DNA of 64,000 bases from Eledone cirrhosa (lineage: Eukaryota), in the NCBI GenBank assembly GCA_964016885.1, contig OZ024740.1:77934001-77998000 (forward strand), written 5' to 3'. The notes under the pieces are model-generated. The model made no database searches. It was given only the letters and a program-made list of their open reading frames with translations, and was not told the origin of the DNA. The position numbers and the translations under genes are program-made. Positions 3,853 to 49,204 of this stretch are shown here, one piece after another; position 1 is the first letter of the stretch, and every line of letters begins with the position of its first letter.

Positions 3853-4815
3853 TTTATTTGCCACAGGGGTGTACAAAAATGGGACATTACAAGACGTGAC
3901 GGCGGGGGTTTTACATAAAAATAACTTTCACATTAATAAATAACAATAAACTATATATAATAAAATAACAATTGAAATCCCCAATAAGGGGAGAACATTA
4001 CTGCAGGGTTGTTTTACACCCCGTGGATAGAACAACCCTCAACACCAGGAACACGTTTTGTAGGTGTTCCTGTCTTCCCTCTGTTTATCTTCCTCAACCT
4101 ACAGGTTTATATACAGAGAAGGCCCATTCACTCGGGTCATTTTCACCACATTCACCCACCTTTCAGCGAATTTACTGGGGTGTAGCACCTCTCTCTCCAC
4201 TCTCACCTTCCTTCTGAAGTGGTACTTAAAGAAGGGGATAAGTTGTTGTCCGGAGAGAAAGGTGTTTGTCCCCAGTCCTTTTAACCTCGTCCACCATATT
4301 ACCTCTTTCACCATAGCCACCAGACAGAAGAAAATCGCCTCTCCTTCGTTCTTAAATGAAGGCAGCGGGGCGATCCTCACGATGGACTCGGCTGACAACT
4401 GGATGCGTCCCACACGTGACAGCAGCTGTTTGACATAATTCCACAGGTCGGTCACCCCTGGGCACTGAACAATTGCGTGCAGAACGGTTTCGATGTCCTG
4501 CTCGCATCTTGGACAGGTCCTTTTGGCAGGATCTCTGCCAGGGCGTCCGTGCCTGTAGGTTTTGTCTCGAACTGGTAGAGCTCCTCGGTAGCACTGCCAG
4601 GCCAGAGACCTCTGGAAGTTATCCATAGGCCCTGGACGGAAAGTCCTCCCGAACAAACTGGTCAGTTCGTCCTCCTCAATGCCTCGAGTTTCCACGAGAA
4701 CGTCGTCGCACTTATCCTCTACTAATCCCCTATAGAATGTCGAAGTGGAGTCTCCGCTGATTGCCGTTTCCGCTTGGTAAAGGGCTGTGAGCGCCTGTAG
4801 GCACTCGAGGTGCCA
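3853..4815 (-). mobile_element. 3' fragment of a Tx1/L1-like LINE (zf-RVT region plus 3' UTR)
   Basis: Open frame 4815-4099 with LAWQCYRGALPV and CPRCEQDIETVLHAIVQC; 3' UTR ends in AATAAA directly before (TATC)n. Confidence 0.85.
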
Positions 4816-4850
4816 GATAGATGGATGGATATATATATATATATATATAA

Positions 4851-4887
<37 letters not shown>

Positions 4888-5549
4888 ATGATAATAGATA
4901 GATAGTACAGATTTGTGATACATTGTCATGTGGTTTACGACTAAAGAATTAATTCACGACCAACTGGCCGGCACTGGAGACAGACATCATGATAAGGTGC
5001 ACTATTTTCCCATTTCTTTATGATGACTATGGAAGTAACATTGAAAGGTGCACAAAGCTATTCAGAGAAAACGAAGATCGGAAGACACCTGGTACTTATA
5101 CCGCTGCCTGCTTTTATGGATAACTTTACTACTATAGTATTGGGTCGTCAAGTATGAAATTTGTAGAAATTTATAGATAAAAAGAAATTTCTACAAATTT
5201 CATACTTGACGATCCCATAGAACTAAAGAGAAAATTGTAAACTGCCCTAGGTCGATTGGATATGTTATTTCTATAATATCAACTATATACCAAAGCCAAA
5301 TCACAGTCTGTCCGTAATGTGGGGGCAAGTTAAGGGATCCAGCTTTAAAAATAAAAAGAAGCTTATTCTATAGATCATGGACCTTAATTACAAGAGAGTT
5401 TAGGGTGAGGCATTATCAATATCTTAACGAAGTCTTTTGACAATGTTCTTATGTGCACTTTAAAAATTTGTCGATCGACTTTCGTCAAATCGGACCGAGG
5501 AAACAATGTTTCCGTTGGTCCTTCCAATTGCTAATACTATCTATCGGTC

Positions 5550-14590: not shown

Positions 14591-14627
14591 CCCTCCGAAG
14601 AAGAGATATTATCTCGAAAATTAAGGA
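14591..14627 (+). ncRNA. Minimal hammerhead-like motif with variant core CCGAAGA
   Basis: CCCT-CCGAAGA-A-GAGAT(ATT)ATCTC-GAAA-AT-T-A-AGGA: stem II perfect, palindromic AATT stem III, short stem I. Confidence 0.5.
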
Positions 14628-15569: not shown

Positions 15570-17265
15570 GGACCATCTGCTCGATGCTTGCCTCAGCCGA
15601 GCCCCCTCTGCCTACCCGCTGGCCTACTTGTCGTATGGAGCCCCGAGCATGTTCCTTGCTACTGATACGGTCATACCTTCGGCCACTGGGGTCCAACAGG
15701 GCGACCCTTTGGGTCCCCTCCTGTTTGCCCTTGGTATAGACAATATCGCCCGGAGTATCACGCCCCTCTCAACTTTTGGTATCTGGATGATGCTACGTTG
15801 AGTGGGCCCGTACAGACTGTCTGCCACGACCTACAATAGGTGGTTCCTGCCCTGGCGGGAATCGGTCTCCAGGTCGACTCATCCAAGTCGGAGGTGGTGA
15901 ATGTCAGCCACGATGCTGAGAGCAGCCTCCGTCTCGGACGTGCAGTCCATTCTCCACCAGGTACAGGTGACTCCCAAAGAGGATGTCCTCATGCTCGGTC
16001 ACCGATCCACCCACCGGCCATCCGCCCCACCATCAGGTCCAGGCTCCAACAACTCCAGACCCTCATGAGCCGACTGGGCTTGATCGACGGCCACCCAGCT
16101 CTCTTTCTGTTGAGGAACTGCTCCGCCATGCCGAAGCTCCTCTATACCCTTCGCAGCGCTCCGTGCTACACCCACGCATCGCTCCTCGCTGACCTCAATT
16201 CCGAGCAGCAGCCGAGAAGATATGCAACGTCAGGTTTGACGACATTGGATGGCAACAGGCCACTTTACCTGTCAGATATGGTGGCCTTGGCCTCCGGTCC
16301 CCGATCTCAATGGCTTTGCCGGCGTTTCTTTCGTCTGTAACCTCATGCCGCGTCCTCGTCAGCAGGGTTCTCCAAAACACAATAGAACCCTCTGTGTTCA
16401 GGGAACGTAAGGCCGCCTGTGAGATGTGCGACCAGCTGTGACTTAGCCTAGTAGACATCCCTCCTCCTCCCCCTGTTGACGTCAAGTCCCTCCAAAGCAT
16501 TTGGGATGCCATCCAGTGCAGCGTGGCTTCAGACAGGCTCACGCGCCAGCTTGACCAGCACCGCCTTGCTTGTTTTCGTGCGGCCTCCAAACCCCACAGT
16601 GGTGCCTGGCTCCATGCCTTACCCCTTCTTCACTGGCACCCAGCTAGATAACAATAGCCTGCGCATCGGCGTTTCCTTGAGGCTCGGCCTCCGGATCTGC
16701 GAGCCTCATCAATGTCGCTGTGGATCCACTGTGGACTCTTTCGGCCTCCACCTGCTTTCCTGTCGCCACAGTGCCGGCCGCCTTCCACGTCCTGCTGCCC
16801 TCACCGAGGTCATTAAGCATGGCTTGGACGCTGCAGGCTTCCCTTCCCAGCTCGAACCGGTGGGGATGGACCGAGGGGACGGCAAAAGGCCAGATGGCAT
16901 GACCATCTCCCCGTTCCGCATTGGCAAACCCCTCGTATGGGATGCCACTTGCACCGACACTTTCTCCAGCCGCAACCTGGTGCAGTCTGCGACTGACCCA
17001 GGTTCTGCTGCACGTCGGGCTGAGGGGGCCAAACTCCTCAAATACCGGTCGCTCTCCGACAGGTTTGCGGTTGTACCCTTGGCAGTGGAGACTTCTGGTG
17101 TCCTCAGCCCTAGGGCTACCTCCCTACTCACTACCATAGGCGCTGAGCTGGCCAGCCGCAGGTGTGAGCCCCGTGAGTTGGAATGGCTTTTCCAGCGCGT
17201 CTCCCTTGCCGTCCTCCGGGGAAACGTCTTCTCTATTCTGTCCGCCGGGGCTGTGGGGAGGCCAC
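15570..17265 (+). mobile_element. 5'-truncated CRE-like non-LTR retrotransposon (RT, Zn knuckle, RLE), frameshifted; 3' end resumes at 20668
   Basis: GVQQGDPLGPLLFAL, YLDD (after a frameshift), CRCGSTVDSFGLHLLSC, KRPDGMTISPF..VWDATC, KYRSL..VPLAVETSG; with the RTE removed the ORF ends AVGRPPI* (stop 20683-20685). Confidence 0.85.
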
Positions 17266-20200
17266 TTACTTACTTGTACTTGTGTCGACATTCACCCTGG
17301 ACGGGTTGAGCCGGCTTCTTCCCTTGTCCTGACGGCATCCCGAACCATGGCAGCCCACGCACGACGGTCCCGGGCTAAGTCATCGGAGATAGCGAGCCAG
17401 TCACGGTTCCATCGGTGCAGGCTGACCATCTGCGGACCTGAGAGTTCGGAGAGGTTCTCCTTGATCGTCGATGCCCAGGACTTCAGCTGCCCGCCAACGC
17501 GCTTGCGCTAGTTAGGGAGTGGAGGTGAAAGGAGAACATTGCGGATCAGCTCACCCTCAGGGCGCCGGGCTGCGTGACCAAACCATCTCAAGCGCCGCTG
17601 CAGAAGCACTGAAGGAAGGAGTCGAAGATTCAGGCGAAGACGAAGACTGGTGGTAGGTACCCGAAGAATGCGGCGGAGACAGTCATTGTCGAAGACCTCC
17701 AGCCCTCGTTGGCCCTCGTTGATCCACTACCCTCATAGGCCATGTTTCACAGCCATAGAGGAGGATAGTGCGAACGACGGCCTGGTAGATTCGTCCTTTG
17801 GTCGCCGAGGTGATCTCTCTTCTGTCCCGCAGACACCGATAGAGGCGCCCAAAAGCGGATCTGGCAGTACCTATGCGACGCTTGACCTCAGCTGCGCCCT
17901 GTCCCGTTGGAACCACTATTGAGCCCGGGTAAACGAAGGACTCCACATCCTCCAGGTCCACGCCCTCGAGAGATATTGGCTGCCAGGCATCAGGCGAGAC
18001 CAGTGACGTCATGACTTTCGACTTGGCGGCATTGATTCGTAGACCAACAGCGGCGGCTGCAGTGTGTACCCTTTCGAGAGCACCTTGTACATCTGTCCCG
18101 TTAGCGCCCATCAGCACGATGTCATCGGCGTAGGCCAGGTCCGTCACCATGACACCTCTACGCCCGAGTAATCCCGGAGCGCTGTGTTGAGAGTGTAGTC
18201 AATGGCGTAGTTAAAGAGAGTTGGCGATAGCGCACACCCCTGCCGAACACCGGTCCTAACATCGAACGACTCCGTCTCCCCACCATAGACCCTCACTCGA
18301 GCCCGAATTGACCAGTAGTAGCCTTGTATGAGACGAAGCGGCTTCACTGGGATGCCGTCCGCCTGCATTATACGCCATAGGGCTTCCAGATCTACCGAGT
18401 CGAACGCAGCTGCAAAGTAAATGAAGAAGAGGACGGTAGGCTGTTGATGTGCCCACCATTGTTCCAGGACACGCCGGAGAATGAAGGTTTGATCAACGCA
18501 CCCCCTCCCCGGACGGAAGCCGCCCTGAGAAGGACGTGTACGGACATCATGGATGGCCTGGAACCTCTTCAGCAGAAGAATTGCGAAGGTTTTGGCAGCA
18601 ACGTCAATTAAACTGATACCTCTGTAGTTGGAACACAGTTTCCTGTCGCCTTTTTTGAAGAAGGGTAGGAGAGTTTCCTCGCTCCAGTCACCAGGGAACC
18701 GCTCCGTCGCCTACACCGAGGAGAAGACTCCATGGAGTCAAGCTGCGAAGACATCAGGCTCGGCCTTGTAGACCTCAGCTGGAACTCCATCTTAGCCCGG
18801 CGCCTTGTTGTTCCGGAGATGTGTCAGGACACTACGTACCTCCTCGACAGTTGGAGGGGCAGTGCTGCACCCGTATTCTTCTCCGGAAGACTGCACGTGG
18901 GTTGGCGTGAGTGGTGGCGGGTGGTTGAGCAGCTCGGAGAAATGGTCCCGCCATCGGACTAGCCGGTCATTAAGATTGATACCCGTACTGCTTCGACTGG
19001 CCCGCTTCACCAGTTGGTAGAGCTTGCGCGAGTCACCACAGGCTGCTTCCCTCTCCGTCTGTGCGCAAATTCGCGCCAGTGTGCATTCCGATCGGCCCGA
19101 ATGGCCAGAGATGTGTGACGTCGGAGATCTCGAAGATTGGGTGTATCCTCGAGAGGGGCACTCTCGCCCTCTCCGCGAGTTCAAGAGTGCCGCCGGATCC
19201 AGTCCCGATGGCGTCTTTGGGTCGACCCGAGATGTTCCCTGGCCACCTCAACCATCGCCGCCCTGAGCGCGTTCCACCCCTGCACCGGTTGCTGTTCCAC
19301 TTCGTTACTCAGCATTTGGAATCGGTTTCGCAGCTCTAGCCGGAAAGCATTTCCAGCATCGAGCTTGAGTCGCGAGATGTTGATCCTTTTCTGGCGGTTG
19401 GGAGGAGGTTTCGCCCGCAGCCGCAGACGAAGGGTTGCTCGAACAAGAGTATGGTCTGACCCATGCTCACTGCCCTATCAGCCCCCCCCCCCCCCCCCGA
19501 TATGCACGCGAGTCCATCACTGAGCTGGCCCACCGAGATCTGACCAGGATGTAGTCAATCTGATTGGCAGTTCTTCCGTCATTGGATCGCCACGTGACAA
19601 GGTGAAGCCGAGGATGTTGGAACCGGGTGTTGGTAACGATAAGACGATTGGTATCCGCTAAGGACACGAGCCTTTTATCATTGTCACAGCGTACGCCTAG
19701 GGCGAAGCGTCCTAGAATATGCCGTGTTGTATCATCAGCCGGCCCCGTCCGCACATTCAGTCCCCAACGACAATAAGAACATCACTGGAGGGGACGCCAT
19801 CCACGGTTGTTTGGAGATCGGCATAGAACTGTGTCTTGTCCGCCTCGTCCGCATTGAGTGTGGGAGCGTAGACGGCAATTACGCTGACGTTGGATATTTG
19901 ACCCCTCAATCGAGCCAGCGCGAGTCGGTGTGAGATCAGCTGCTACGCCAGCAGAGCCACTTGCGCGTCGGGGCCGAGCACTACAGCTACCCTGTGAAGG
20001 CCACTGTTGTCAGTCACGCCACTATGGTACAAGTGGTAGGAGATCTCCTCGCCAGGAACTTTGATCAGAAGATGACCAACATCGGGAAGTCGAACTTCTG
20101 AAAGGCAAGGGACACTAACGCAGTACCTGTGCAGAGCCTTCATTGTAAGTACCTGGACACCGTCGTCACGAAGTGTTCGGACGTTCCAGCACGCCACCGT

Positions 20201-23764: not shown

Positions 23765-23812
<48 letters not shown>

Positions 23813-23848
23813 AATAAACAATACAATATAATTACCTCATAATTATGT

Positions 23849-23924
23849 ATTACCTTGTCCGACGAACGAATGAGGACGTCTCTTGTATTCGTATTATTCG
23901 GGAAACCTCTGGTAATGAGGTAAT
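23849..23924 (+). ncRNA. Type-I hammerhead with variant core CCGACGA
   Basis: Stem I ATTACCTTGT/ATGAGGTAAT (10 bp, 2 G-U), stem II CGAAT...ATTCG, GAAA, stem III ACC(TCT)GGT, predicted GUA cleavage after 23914. Confidence 0.7.
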
Positions 23925-24897
23925 TATATTGTATTGTTTATTATACATTAAATTTAGCTCTGGTACTTACATAGAGCACTCTTCACTCCTATGACTTTTT
24001 CAATTTTCAACGGAAACTTCAATACTTATATATATATATACAAAATTTAGTACAGCATCATCGAAGCTCTGGTTGCAGCCAAGCTAGCGAATGCAGGGGT
24101 GTGCAGCCAAGCTAGTGAATGCAGGGGTGTGCAGCAATAGGGTATATTACCCTAGAGTTATAACATTACGTTTAGACAGCTTTGCAAATTGAGGACGGCG
24201 GTCGATAGGTTAACTTTGCCTTTCAATCCTTACGGGGTCGATGATATAAAGTACCAGTAATACACTGGGATTATTGCTGGCCTTGTGCCAAAAGTAGAAA
24301 CAATTATATAGTTACTTAGTTGTTTCTACAGAGATAAGCTCACAAATCTCAACCAAACACTTTCTCAACCAAGACTTTCGGTCATTGAGTAAAGCGAATA
24401 AAAGAAAAAGACTATGCTGGCTTCGAACTACATTGTGTCAAGAACGGGGTCAGAGAGACTTCTATGTTCTTGTAGTGACTCTCCAGAAACTCTTTGGCAC
24501 TATTTGTACCAATGTAGAAACTATTAGTCTGAGACCATGTTGAAACCAATCTTTAAAAAAACTACTAAGATTGGAAGTTCAATATTTGATTACAGGTGTA
24601 CCAAATATGGAAGCTACGGAAAGATTGAACAAGAGAAACTTCTAGCTGCTTTACAGCTTCCCTTGTTTCTCTTTTCCTTTTCCTTTTCTTAGGCATAATC
24701 TGCCTCCCATTGGCCTTCAATATAATATTTGAAATGTTATTTTTTTTATTTTTATTACTTGTCTCACTAGCTCTTTTTGATTACCAACTGTAAGGAGTAC
24801 TCGATACTTCCCAGAGTCTGTCATGGCTTACTAGCTCTATACGGACGTCTAAATTGAATAAAATAAATAGGCACAAAGCCTATCGGCCGCCGTCTTC

Positions 24898-24974
<77 letters not shown>

Positions 24975-25159: not shown

Positions 25160-25361
25160 AAGAGAGACATATATATATGCATATATATGTGTGTGTGTGT
25201 GTTAGGTATTTCCGAAGGAAAAGCAAAGGAAAAAGGAGTGCTCTATGTATTGAACAGAGCTATCTAATTATAAAGTGAACAACACAAAATATAACTATTC
25301 CATTACTGACCAACGGTCAAAAATACAAATATAATATAGATATAAACACATATATATAGTC

Positions 25362-25405
25362 TAACAAAGTTCTTTCGTCGCACATCTGCAACATCGTCAG
25401 TGGTG
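25362..25405 (-). ncRNA. Minimal hammerhead ribozyme, same family as 47841-47885
   Basis: Minus strand CACCA-CTGACGA-T-GTTGCA(GATG)TGCGAC-GAAA-GAAC-TT; stem II covaries with the 47.8 kb copy; stem I weak. Confidence 0.7.
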
Positions 25406-28182: not shown

Positions 28183-28630
28183 AATATATAGGTACATATG
28201 TATGAAAATTGAATGGAAACAGTACCTTCACCGTATGGGTATAAGCGTGGTAATGCCAATATTCTCCCATTCTAGTGGCTTGTACGATGTTATTACACTA
28301 TCTTCTGTTGTCAAAAAATACGGTCTGTTACTGATTTAATTCAATTTTCAAATACCACCACCGCTTTCTAATCACGTGATATTTACATAGACACACACAC
28401 ACACACACACATATTCTGAATAATAATAACTCCAGAAAACTTCTTTGTAGGGTGCTTTTAATCTATTGTAAAACTATATTCATTGAGTAATCAATATTAA
28501 TCTTTGGTCTGGGTAACCAGAGGAAAGATCTCCTATATCTGGAGTGGGTACTGTGCGGGTTGTAGTGGCGGTAGAGGGACGGGGCAGGTCTCATTCAGTA
28601 GGTTAAGGTCTATCATTTTCGGTACTCATT

Positions 28631-29225
28631 ATGAGTTGGACCGGTGGACATCGTGGCTTTGTTGTTCAAACGTATTAGGAAAACAACCGTTTTGTATTAG
28701 CGACGCAGCGAGCTTTCTAGATCGGAAAACAATTTTGCTTTGGATTTCTAACCTTCAGGCAATTGGATCCACACTGAAAAGAAAGCCACCTGGCAAACCT
28801 AGGACTGTTAAAACTCCAGAAAATATGGCAGCCGTAAGAGCATCCATTCAGCAATTGCCAAAGTGTTCCACTCGTAGGCATAACATAGCACTAGAGATAT
28901 CAAGTCGGATTTTGAGGAGGATTCTCCATGTCGATGTAAACTGCATCCTTACAAAATGAGGTTTGTTCAAGAATTAACCGAGAAAGATCATGTCAATCGC
29001 AGAGCCGTAAATCGACGCAATTCCACCTGAAATGACCCGGAGAGTCGTGGAGAACTTCCTAGAACGACTCCATCAATGTATTGCTAATAACGACCGCCAT
29101 TTGTCTGATATAGTTTTTAAAAACCATTAAAACAAAGCTATTTTTCTGAACTGTTTAGAAATATAATCATTTTCTTTTCTAGATAATTGTGTTCTTGTTT
29201 TATATCCCTTCAGAATGTGGGAGGT
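28631..29225 (+). mobile_element. Internally deleted Tc1/mariner-superfamily transposase relic
   Basis: MSWTGGHRGFVVQTY*..ATQRAF, GSTLKRKPPGKPRTVKTPEN..STRR, HPYK..VQEL, then C-terminal VVENFLERLHQCIANNDRHL; catalytic region missing. Confidence 0.8.
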
Positions 29226-30223: not shown

Positions 30224-30723
30224 ATATATATACTCTTACGCACACATACACAACACGTATATATATATATATATATACTCTTACGCACTCATACACAACA
30301 CGTCACAGTTCTTAGCCATTTTGAATTCGTTTCTGGCGGGGATTATTTAAGAAAATTCTTCGTCCAAGTGAGTTTGTTTCCTGATGATTTCGAAGCTCGT
30401 GAATTTATCCTTGATCGGATATTTCCAAAAGCGAATGAAACGTCATGGGGTAGAAACGTAATCTTGGTATGTTTATATACATTTTTTCTTCTAACTTTAA
30501 ATTTATACCTAATTGTGTATGGTTGACGATATATTTAATCGATTTCCACGTGCTATTGAAGTGCTGTTGATCGCGAATAGATGGATGTCGTTTATTTATC
30601 TATTATTTCTTCATATGTGCCTTTTAATCTTATAGCCTTGTTTAATTGGTTTTTTGTGTGGTTGATTATGCTGATTGGGAGAGGAGATGGTGTATATATC
30701 TTATGATTCTATGGACATACGTT

Positions 30724-44548: not shown

Positions 44549-44584
44549 TCTTCTGATGAAGGACTAGAGTCCGAAACGTTAAGA
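44549..44584 (+). ncRNA. Minimal Penelope-type hammerhead ribozyme
   Basis: TCTT-CTGATGA-A-GGAC(TAGA)GTCC-GAAA-CG-T-T-AAGA; stems I and II perfect, palindromic ACGT stem III. Confidence 0.85.
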
Positions 44585-47840: not shown

Positions 47841-47885
47841 AGTCATAGTTCTTTCGTCACACACTCTGTGACCTCTTCAGTGACT
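47841..47885 (-). ncRNA. Intact minimal hammerhead ribozyme of the Penelope-like element
   Basis: AGTCA-CTGAAGA-G-GTCACA(GAGTG)TGTGAC-GAAA-GAAC-T-A-TGACT; stems I and II perfect, CUA cleavage triplet. Confidence 0.88.
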
Positions 47886-48182: not shown

Positions 48183-48710
48183 TTAATTGTAAGTTGTGAT
48201 GTTGCTGTTCCACTCATATTTTCTATTTAATTTTGGTTTTAATTCTTTTATGCTTACTGCCTCTGTAATTTGCCTAAACATTGCGTCTTTCTTGTGTGTG
48301 GATTCTATTTTTATTTCTATGCTCTCTAATTTACCCCTGTGTTCTATCTTAGCATGTTGGTAGAGCACAGATGATTCTTTACTATCTTGGAGGTCTCGCC
48401 AGTGTTCATTTATTCGTTCCCCTATACTACGAGCTGTCTCACCTATGTACACTATATTTTTGTTTCTACATTGTCCCTCAGTACATCTTATGCTATATAC
48501 TACATTTCTAGTTTTACAGTTAATATGGGGGCTTATTTTACAGGTTATACATTTCTTATCTATACATGAGGGTCTTTGGAACGGGTATGTCTTGCTAATA
48601 AGTGTTTTTACGGAGGTACCAGGTCTTTCTACTATCTTAATATTGAGATTATGTTTCTTTAGGGCCCTTCTAAATTTGTAGGCTAGTTCGCCTCTAGGGG
48701 TTGTATCAAT
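48183..48710 (-). CDS. C-terminal 175 aa of a Penelope-like ORF: Cys-rich linker plus GIY-YIG endonuclease (no start codon, RT lost)
   Basis: IDTTPRGELAYKFRRALKKHNLNIKIVERPGTSVKTLISKTYPFQRPSCIDKKCITCKISPHINCKTRNVVYSIRCTEGQCRNKNIVYIGETARSIGERINEH..QH..RQITEAVSI..PKLNRKYEW. Confidence 0.88.
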   Translation of the reverse strand: MDTTPRGELAYKFRRALKKHNLNIKIVERPGTSVKTLISKTYPFQRPSCIDKKCITCKISPHINCKTRNVVYSIRCTEGQCRNKNIVYIGETARSIGERINEHWRDLQDSKESSVLYQHAKIEHRGKLESIEIKIESTHKKDAMFRQITEAVSIKELKPKLNRKYEWNSNITTYN

Positions 48711-49204
48711 ACAACCCCTAGAGGCGACCGATAGTCGGGCCGCATTGCCATAGCGACGAAGAAAACTGAACTCAGGAAAAAAAAAAATATATATATATAT
48801 ATATCGGTGTTTTGTTACTGTTTTCTCTTTCCTTCCCCTTCGGTTTCTTTCCCTCCTTCTTCCGTTTTCTCAATAACTTATCCAGTTATTGACGCCCTGG
48901 GGCGAAGTATATTGTCTTTAAAGCGTAGAAATATCCGAGACCCAGTAGACAACTGATGAGGACCCACCCCACACCCGTTCTTGCTTTCTTCGTATTCCCA
49001 TTGCATTTTAAGTTACCTTAAATAGCAACTACACAGCCATTTCTACTCTCTCTCTCTCTCTCTCTCTAAAAACAAAATTTGTTTTGGCTCTAATCGCGAA
49101 TGCGTAAATGCATTCGTGAATTTTATATCGAATAATAATAACAATGTTATATTGTTTTAGACGACTATCGTCATCCTTTTGTTCTAGTGGTAACAGAGAG
49201 AGAA

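What the first reader, a model, noticed from the sequence alone, without database searches (positions are those of the whole stretch)
23810..23945. Inverted arm that stops exactly at the predicted hammerhead cleavage site
Seen: 23810-23840 is the reverse complement of 23915-23945, and identity ends at 23915, the first base after the predicted GUA cut (23914). Inference: either the reverse-transcribed template had a ribozyme-generated 5' end, which would be a genomic fossil of in vivo cleavage, or the element encodes an upstream anti-stem-I strand that switches the ribozyme off.
Basis: partly seen in the sequence, partly recalled or inferred. Interest (0 to 1): 0.7.

Follow-up and report, generated by a model that had tools for sequence, protein, structure and literature searches.

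The report
Penelope fold-back marks start, not cut
This is one short back-to-back insertion of a very common Penelope-type jumping gene; its inverted arm ends at the predicted ribozyme cut, but only about 0.6% of copies end there, whereas ten times more end 67 bases upstream, often with an extra G, which likely marks the capped start of the element's RNA.

Summary
In detail: 23810-23840 is the exact reverse complement of 23915-23945, and a type I hammerhead motif predicts a cut after 23914. The locus is a head-to-head insertion, into (TA)n, of the 3' end of a Hydra-clade Penelope-like retrotransposon with over 2,000 copies in the genome. The arm is the usual tail-less inverted copy: fixed outer end (about 23950), variable inner end. 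Only 12 copy ends stop at 23915 against 2,008 that run through (0.6%). That is about twice background (P 0.007-0.04) but not clearly above neighbouring bases (P 0.09-0.2). The arm is not an encoded switch. The real pile-up is at 23847-23848, the 5' edge of helix I (86 ends against 1,306; 6.2%). It carries an initiator-like motif, a Penelope-type DPE exactly at +28, and often an extra G, as expected for a capped transcription start. The window's own direct copy begins this way. So the fossil RNA end here is likely the start, not the cut; rare cleaved templates remain possible. The scan noted the twin-arm footprint before on other DNA of this genome; two look-ups showed no note on this start-site pile-up.

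The parts
23768..23804 (.). (TA)n microsatellite, left flank; insertion target
   Evidence: the same flank in most family copies
23805..23840 (-). Tail-less inverted copy (arm) of element bases 23915-23950, one mismatch at 23809; outer end is the family's fixed second end point
   Evidence: 838 exact (TA)-plus-outer-end matches genome-wide (at least 1 of the first 30 was not a true end); 106 of 199 held tail-less ends have this outer junction
23841..23846 (.). Junction filler; with the arm's last two bases it repeats a 7-base stretch inside the arm (inferred templated slip during end joining)
   Evidence: sequence; mechanism inferred
23847..23848 (+). Extra G-T just 5' of the direct copy; recurrent 5'-end signature, G inferred to come from the RNA cap
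   Evidence: 23 of 30 genome-wide matches of this end type have the G, the window among them
23849..24026 (+). Direct, tail-bearing copy of the 3' end (pseudo-LTR) of a Hydra-clade Penelope-like element, running from the likely transcription start to the first fixed end point
   Evidence: 3 differences from copy L002 over 23849-24022
23849..23924 (+). Type I hammerhead motif: helix I 23849-58/23915-24, core 23859-65 with C in place of U4, long helix II, GAAA 23902-05, 3-bp helix III, predicted cut after 23914
   Evidence: activity untested
23874..23879 (+). DPE-like motif GGACGT at +28 to +33 counted from 23847, inside helix II
   Evidence: 82 of 113 held copies read GGACGTTT; compare RGACGTGY in PMC2377424
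23951..24026 (+). Tail (about 75 nt) present only on the direct copy; in tandem copies it runs on into the ORF
24027..24040 (.). (TA)n microsatellite, right flank

Best explanation
The locus is a back-to-back pair of short copies of a Hydra-type Penelope-like retrotransposon end, likely made when both cut strands of a (TA)n target primed reverse transcription at two fixed internal sites of the element's RNA. Shown: the family, its RT and endonuclease ORF, the two fixed outer ends (about 23950 and about 24026), the variable inner ends, and a strong pile-up of inner ends at 23847-23848. Inferred: 23847 is the capped transcription start of an internal Inr/DPE promoter, so the hammerhead occupies the first 78 bases of the RNA; the tail-bearing cDNA ran off the capped, uncut RNA (hence the extra G), while the second cDNA stopped after 36 bases, and the two were end-joined with a short filler. 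Its stop at 23915 is most likely an ordinary premature stop in a region where stops are mildly raised (helix I entry, AT microhomology), with roughly even odds for this one copy that it came from a rare cleaved RNA if the twofold excess is real. The arm has no programmed function.
For: Architecture matches the published PLE pattern of an inverted 5'-truncated copy and a one-sided tail (PMC8557442 passages; PMC11167929 parts 1-2). Ends at cut: 12 against 2,008 continuing. Ends at 23847: 86 by eye against 1,306 continuing; Fisher P=1.6e-22. Of 95 junction ends between 23861 and 23845, 64 fall at 23846-51 and 45 at 23847-48; null mean 33.7 for the six bases, maximum 52 in 5,000 runs. Unselected samples: 5 of 30 end at 23846-53; 0 of 30 arms end at 23915+-2. 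Extra sense G: 13 of 21 ends at 23847 against 8 of 72 control ends; 32 of 86 by eye genome-wide against 8 of 47 A-excluded controls, P=0.018; 23 of 30 for the window's end type, including 5 copies joined straight to (AT)n, 4 of which cannot have copied it from their own tail end. DPE at exactly +28 only if +1 is 23847. C at core position 4 in 75 of 113 held copies; U4C lowers cleavage in vitro (PMC3088659 passage). In the one PLE studied in vitro, uncut RNA was the main template and no RNA-seq ends were found at the cut.
Against: 23915 is still the modal position in its 17-base window (10 of 69; P=0.007), and five loci have both arms ending within a base or two of it (L062, L067, L070, L074, L122), as a cleaved template predicts. 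No RNA data support the start site. Some extra G's can be explained by the partner copy's sequence or by microhomology with the tail end (7 of 15 remain when the palindromic-register class is removed; two of those seven are one duplicated junction, and some others may still be partner-derived). The AATT palindrome at 23848-51 favours fold-back joins: 35 of the 64 hotspot ends are symmetric joins. None of 95 ends near 23847 belongs to a copy that continues into the ORF, which a simple run-off model would sometimes give. The T of the G-T pair is unexplained.
Confidence: 0.72

Rival explanations
1. A minority (about 0.3% of copies) were reverse-transcribed from RNA already cut by the hammerhead, and this arm is one of them: a true but rare fossil of in vivo cleavage. 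Compatible with the rest of the best explanation.
For: Twofold excess at the pre-specified base; five loci with both arms ending there, one consistent with a blunt join later split by a palindromic insertion (L067); ends at 23915 are not rich in the cap-like base (1 of 10), as expected for a 5'-OH end; fold conserved in a sister family.
Against: Not significant against 23912-18 (P=0.09; 0.20 with palindromes collapsed). The only two self-complementary dinucleotides in 23903-23920 flank the cut, so fold-back joins are expected there. Similar counts at 23925 and 23930. Only 2 of 15 tight fold-backs sit at the cut. The partner copy in this locus crossed the uncut site; the core carries C4.
Confidence: 0.3
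2. The pile-up at 23847-48 is not a transcription start but a structural stop: the cDNA of helix I folds back on itself, or two cDNAs anneal through the AATT palindrome, and synthesis ends there.
For: 35 of 64 hotspot ends are symmetric joins; two junctions are in helix-I register (L021, L340); none of 95 ends belongs to a copy that continues into the ORF.
Against: 29 of 64 hotspot ends join other sequence; does not explain the extra G at ends joined straight to (AT)n or the DPE at +28.
Confidence: 0.2
3. The element encodes an upstream strand that pairs with the 3' side of helix I and switches the ribozyme off.
For: In a read-through RNA the arm would out-compete helix I: -51.2 against -34.6 kcal/mol.
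Against: The element's real upstream sequence is unrelated to the arm; arm length varies from about 30 to more than 1,500 bases; the arm lies 5' of the likely start site; no host gene exon was evident in the window's ORF list.
Confidence: 0.03

Closest known systems
Hydra clade of endonuclease-bearing Penelope-like elements (Craig et al. 2021, PMC8557442; passages read)
   Same: RWK and DKT motifs, CxCX5C linker, CxxC and CxH around the endonuclease E and N, C-terminal GIY-YIG-type domain, hammerhead in the pseudo-LTR, (TA)n targets, inverted truncated copy, one-sided tail.
   Different: Tail about 75 nt rather than 30-40; unit about 3.7 kb against 'generally under 3 kb'; C4 core. The passages read say nothing of where 5' ends pile up. 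Their supplements, not read, may hold this family.
Poseidon element PAc of Anolis, in vitro (Frangieh et al. 2024, PMC11167929; parts 1-2 of 4 read)
   Same: Two internal RT start sites defining the tail, both target strands extended, AT-rich targets, hammerhead at the pseudo-LTR/ORF junction, uncut RNA as main template.
   Different: Different clade; no mapping of transcription start or of 5' truncation points in the parts read.
Drosophila virilis Penelope internal promoter (Schostak et al. 2008, PMC2377424; passages and section 15 read)
   Same: Promoter inside the pseudo-LTR with downstream element RGACGTGY; tandem and inverted layouts.
   Different: There a short exon and a 75-nt intron separate the start from helix I (intron end at helix I per PMC4209133); here the likely start abuts helix I and the DPE lies inside helix II.
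Untemplated 5' G of full-length L1 insertions (PMC9341517; three passages read)
   Same: Extra G at the 5' junction attributed to reverse transcription of the cap.
   Different: Different retroelement class; here the capped-end copies are only about 105 or 180 bases long.

Membership tests
Hydra-clade Penelope-like element | Single ORF with RT and C-terminal GIY-YIG endonuclease between pseudo-LTRs | tested here: met
   In family copies L200, L203, L210; Pfam GIY-YIG only weak, E=0.028, and no Pfam RT hit; 1,810 homologues of about 700 aa. The window copy itself holds no ORF.
Hydra-clade Penelope-like element | RWK and DKT motifs | tested here: met
   Present in L200, L201 and homologues (criteria)
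Hydra-clade Penelope-like element | CxCX5C linker; CxxC and CxH flanking E and N | tested here: met
   L203, L210
Hydra-clade Penelope-like element | Insertion into (TA)n; inverted truncated copy; one-sided tail | tested here: met
Hydra-clade Penelope-like element | Placement in the clade on an RT tree | not tested
   No named reference sequences were held
Type I PLE hammerhead ribozyme | Core CUGANGA, GAAA, NUH | tested here: inconclusive
   Window has C for U4; U4 in 38 of 113 held copies (sample biased by the queries); canonical in the sister family
Type I PLE hammerhead ribozyme | Helices I-III, long helix II with an extra base after A9, short helix III | tested here: met
   sister family in L006, L060, L102 keeps the layout with different stem sequence; criteria from PMC4209133. 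No Rfam hit at gathering score.
Type I PLE hammerhead ribozyme | G10.1-C11.1 pair and palindromic loop 3 | tested here: not met
   Helix II opens with C-G after an A/G mismatch; loop 3 is UCU
Type I PLE hammerhead ribozyme | Self-cleavage after 23914 | not testable with these tools
   Needs an assay
Non-LTR retrozyme | Non-coding tandem units each with a hammerhead | tested here: not met
   Single hammerhead at this locus; the family is coding; definition from bioRxiv 10.64898/2026.07.22.740005, part 1 of 5 read
Inr/DPE internal promoter | Initiator at +1 and DPE at +28 | tested here: met
   the DPE motif RGACGTGY is, the Inr consensus and the +28 spacing are recalled; the window copy has lost the initiator bases
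Inr/DPE internal promoter | Capped transcripts starting at +1 | not testable with these tools
   Indirect only: extra G at copy ends

The most novel reading that the evidence does not exclude
Penelope-like elements regenerate their pseudo-LTR by a retrovirus-like strong-stop jump: RT starts 105 or 180 bases downstream of the cap, runs off the RNA's 5' end, and usually jumps to the identical hammerhead region at the 3' end; the hundreds of cap-marked mini-copies are failed jumps, and the small excess at 23915 records the few templates that the ribozyme had already cut, giving a genomic read-out of cut against uncut RNA (about 1 to 10 or fewer).
Probability: 0.3. Interest if true: 0.75.

Novelty: new member of a known kind. 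Interest (0 to 1): 0.4.

Why it matters
As reported, the finding is an ordinary Penelope-type insertion and the coincidence with the cut is weak. The by-product matters more: copy ends in one genome appear to map the element's transcription start to the base, place the ribozyme and promoter on the same 80 bases, and put a ceiling on how often cut RNA is copied. [quoted passage not shown]

Tried and rejected
Rfam scan of the window: no match. RNA runs: no RNA holder listed, so no reads were laid. PDB search: two capsid hits of low score, taken as spurious. The protein atlas gave no answer. Neptune clade, my first guess, rejected on the CxCX5C, RWK and DKT motifs. Alternative cut after the GUA at 23920-22 rejected: no helix I partner upstream of the core. 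A type III fold cutting near 23848 rejected by inspection: no helix I or III partner. A splice acceptor at 23847-49 rejected: no AG, and the upstream partners are heterogeneous. Linkage test for template jumps across 23847, 86 copies: mean D' 0.66 across against 0.77 and 0.72 within sides, with only four downstream markers, two of them in an ambiguous indel; inconclusive. Rows dropped before counts: 7 of 19 and 8 of 94 (substitutions or deletions that continue the family sequence, judged by eye); 11 of 80; 3 of 98; 34 of 98 (indels or no family context by a crude filter, which also let a few unrelated matches through). Searches used only the first 100 listed of 236 and of 210 matches. Two scripts stopped with errors after partial output.

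Full report
Observation. 23810-23840 is the exact reverse complement of 23915-23945, and pairing stops at once on the inner side; outward it continues through one mismatch to 23805/23950. A motif scan finds a type I hammerhead with a 10-pair helix I, core at 23859 and GUA ending at 23914. Rfam has no match. The coordinates are right.

What the DNA is. A search of the window's own 3.0-Gb genome gave 1,737 first-look candidates, 40 scored, most 96-98% identical. Copies share a 3' end near 24026, sit in (TA)n and extend upstream for variable lengths. Longer copies hold RT and C-terminal endonuclease reading frames between two hammerhead-bearing repeats. The motifs RWK, DKT, CxCX5C, CxxC and CxH match the Hydra clade as defined in PMC8557442 (passages); that lead came from earlier finding e1-10307541 and I checked it. 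Pfam support is weak. The same paper describes an inverted 5'-truncated copy and a one-sided tail as typical, and PMC11167929 (parts 1-2 of 4) explains the tail by two internal RT start sites and extension of both target strands. Here 838 places match (TA) plus the arm's outer end. The arm is therefore the standard tail-less second copy.

Copies that break exactly after 23915: 19 matches, of which 12, at 9 loci, are true junctions by eye; 2,008 continue. A position-neutral pattern listed all 80 genome-wide matches breaking between 23919 and 23903; 69 are junctions and 11 indels. 23915 has 10, 23913 has 9, 23918 has 7, 23914 has 6; the simulated expectation at 23915 is 4.1 (P=0.007). Two junctions are counted from both strands; with 8 distinct ones P is about 0.04, and against the neighbours 23912-18 P is 0.09 or 0.20. 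In the first 100 of 236 matches of a wider pattern, 23915 had 6, and 23913, 23925 and 23930 had 5 each. None of 30 unselected arms ends at 23915+-2. In favour of cleavage, five loci have both arms ending at or next to 23915; against, the only self-complementary dinucleotides in that stretch flank the cut, and only 2 of 15 tight fold-backs lie there. The window's core has C for U4, as do 75 of 113 held copies; that change lowers activity in vitro (PMC3088659 passage), and metazoan PLE hammerheads cleave poorly alone (PMC4209133, parts 1-2 of 4). A sister family keeps the fold with different stems, so the motif is real. Verdict: at most a twofold excess touching well under 1% of copies.

The switch idea. 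The arm would out-compete helix I in a read-through RNA (-51.2 against -34.6 kcal/mol), but the element's own upstream sequence differs and arm lengths run from about 30 to over 1,500 bases. It is a by-product of insertion.

Where ends do pile up. Many partner copies began near 23849, so I repeated the test there. A stricter filter gave 210 matches; of 95 junction ends among the first 100 listed, 64 lie at 23846-51 and 45 at 23847-48, against a null mean of 33.7 and a maximum of 52 for the six bases. Like for like, 86 ends follow 23847 against 1,306 continuing, ten times the rate at the cut. Counting from 23847, an initiator-like motif spans +1 and GGACGT sits at +28 to +33 (Inr consensus and spacing recalled), matching the downstream promoter element of D. 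virilis Penelope (PMC2377424, section 15). Ends there often carry an extra sense-strand G: 13 of 21 against 8 of 72 controls, 32 of 86 by eye, and 23 of 30 for the end type of the window's own direct copy; five of these are joined straight to (AT)n. An untemplated G is attributed to copying of the cap in L1 insertions (PMC9341517 passages). Caveats: part of the G excess can come from partner sequence, 35 of 64 hotspot ends are symmetric joins through an AATT palindrome, none of the 95 belongs to a copy that continues into the ORF, and there are no RNA data.

Mechanism. Shown: family, two fixed outer ends, variable inner ends, pile-up at 23847-48, extra G, DPE spacing. Inferred: transcription starts at 23847; the endonuclease nicks both strands of (TA)n; RT starts near 24026 on one strand and near 23950 on the other; the first cDNA runs off the capped, uncut RNA; the second stops after 36 bases; end joining adds a 6-base filler. 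More speculative: since most copies extend upstream of 23847 and tandem copies do too, run-off cDNAs may normally jump to the 3' repeat like retroviral strong-stop DNA, which would regenerate the pseudo-LTR. Read-through transcripts from upstream explain the long copies equally well, and my linkage test could not decide.

Novelty. The architecture is published and was noted before by this scan on other DNA of the genome. Five paper searches turned up no account of cap-marked run-off copies or of truncation points mapped against the hammerhead in PLEs, and a word search of the scan's notes found none; subscription papers and all supplements were not seen. PMC3846280 (passages) explains junction palindromes by self-priming, a different reading of the same structures. 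The finding as stated is ordinary; the start-site footprint is the part worth following.

Noticed in passing
window 25219-25403, minus strand: A diverged relative (74% over the tail region) with its own hammerhead-like core (CUGACGA near 25397-25403, 5-bp helix II, GAAA) about 70 bases further from the shared tail; helix I is weak.
   Followed up: partly
window 14595-14623 (+), 30381-30452 (+), 44553-44580 (+), 47846-47880 (-): Four more hammerhead-like motifs of other repeat families; the one at 14595 also has C at position 4.
   Followed up: no
L006:2837-2882, L060:2656-2701, L102:2887-2932: Sister family with canonical core, the same extra bases at the foot of helix II and compensatory helix I and II sequences.
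   Followed up: partly
L067 and L066, at the 23915-equivalent junction: Palindromic inserts (about 31 and 75 bases) next to the junction; in L067 the insert is flanked by TA on both sides, like a tiny DNA-transposon derivative.
   Followed up: no
window 24190-24310 and 24870-24900: A short interspersed repeat with more than ten copies in the window (for example 3253, 7660, 8638, 15271, 37534, 46489); a partial inverted copy lies at about 24870-24900.
   Followed up: no
window 48183-48869 (-), 15840-17309 (+), 17683-19247 (-), 4099-4953 (-), 28501-28959 (-): Decayed transposon ORF pieces: a GIY-YIG-like endonuclease, CRE-like and RTE-like RT fragments, an L1-like end and a mariner-like piece; labels are recalled from motifs, not tested.
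   Followed up: no
family copies, 23912-23919 equivalent: A recurrent 8-base deletion between two short direct repeats removes the cut site in about 7 of the 80 matches.
   Followed up: no
G000:C160:287294-299502: Four copies of one fold-back junction spaced about 3 or 6 kb apart: a tandemly amplified insertion.
   Followed up: no
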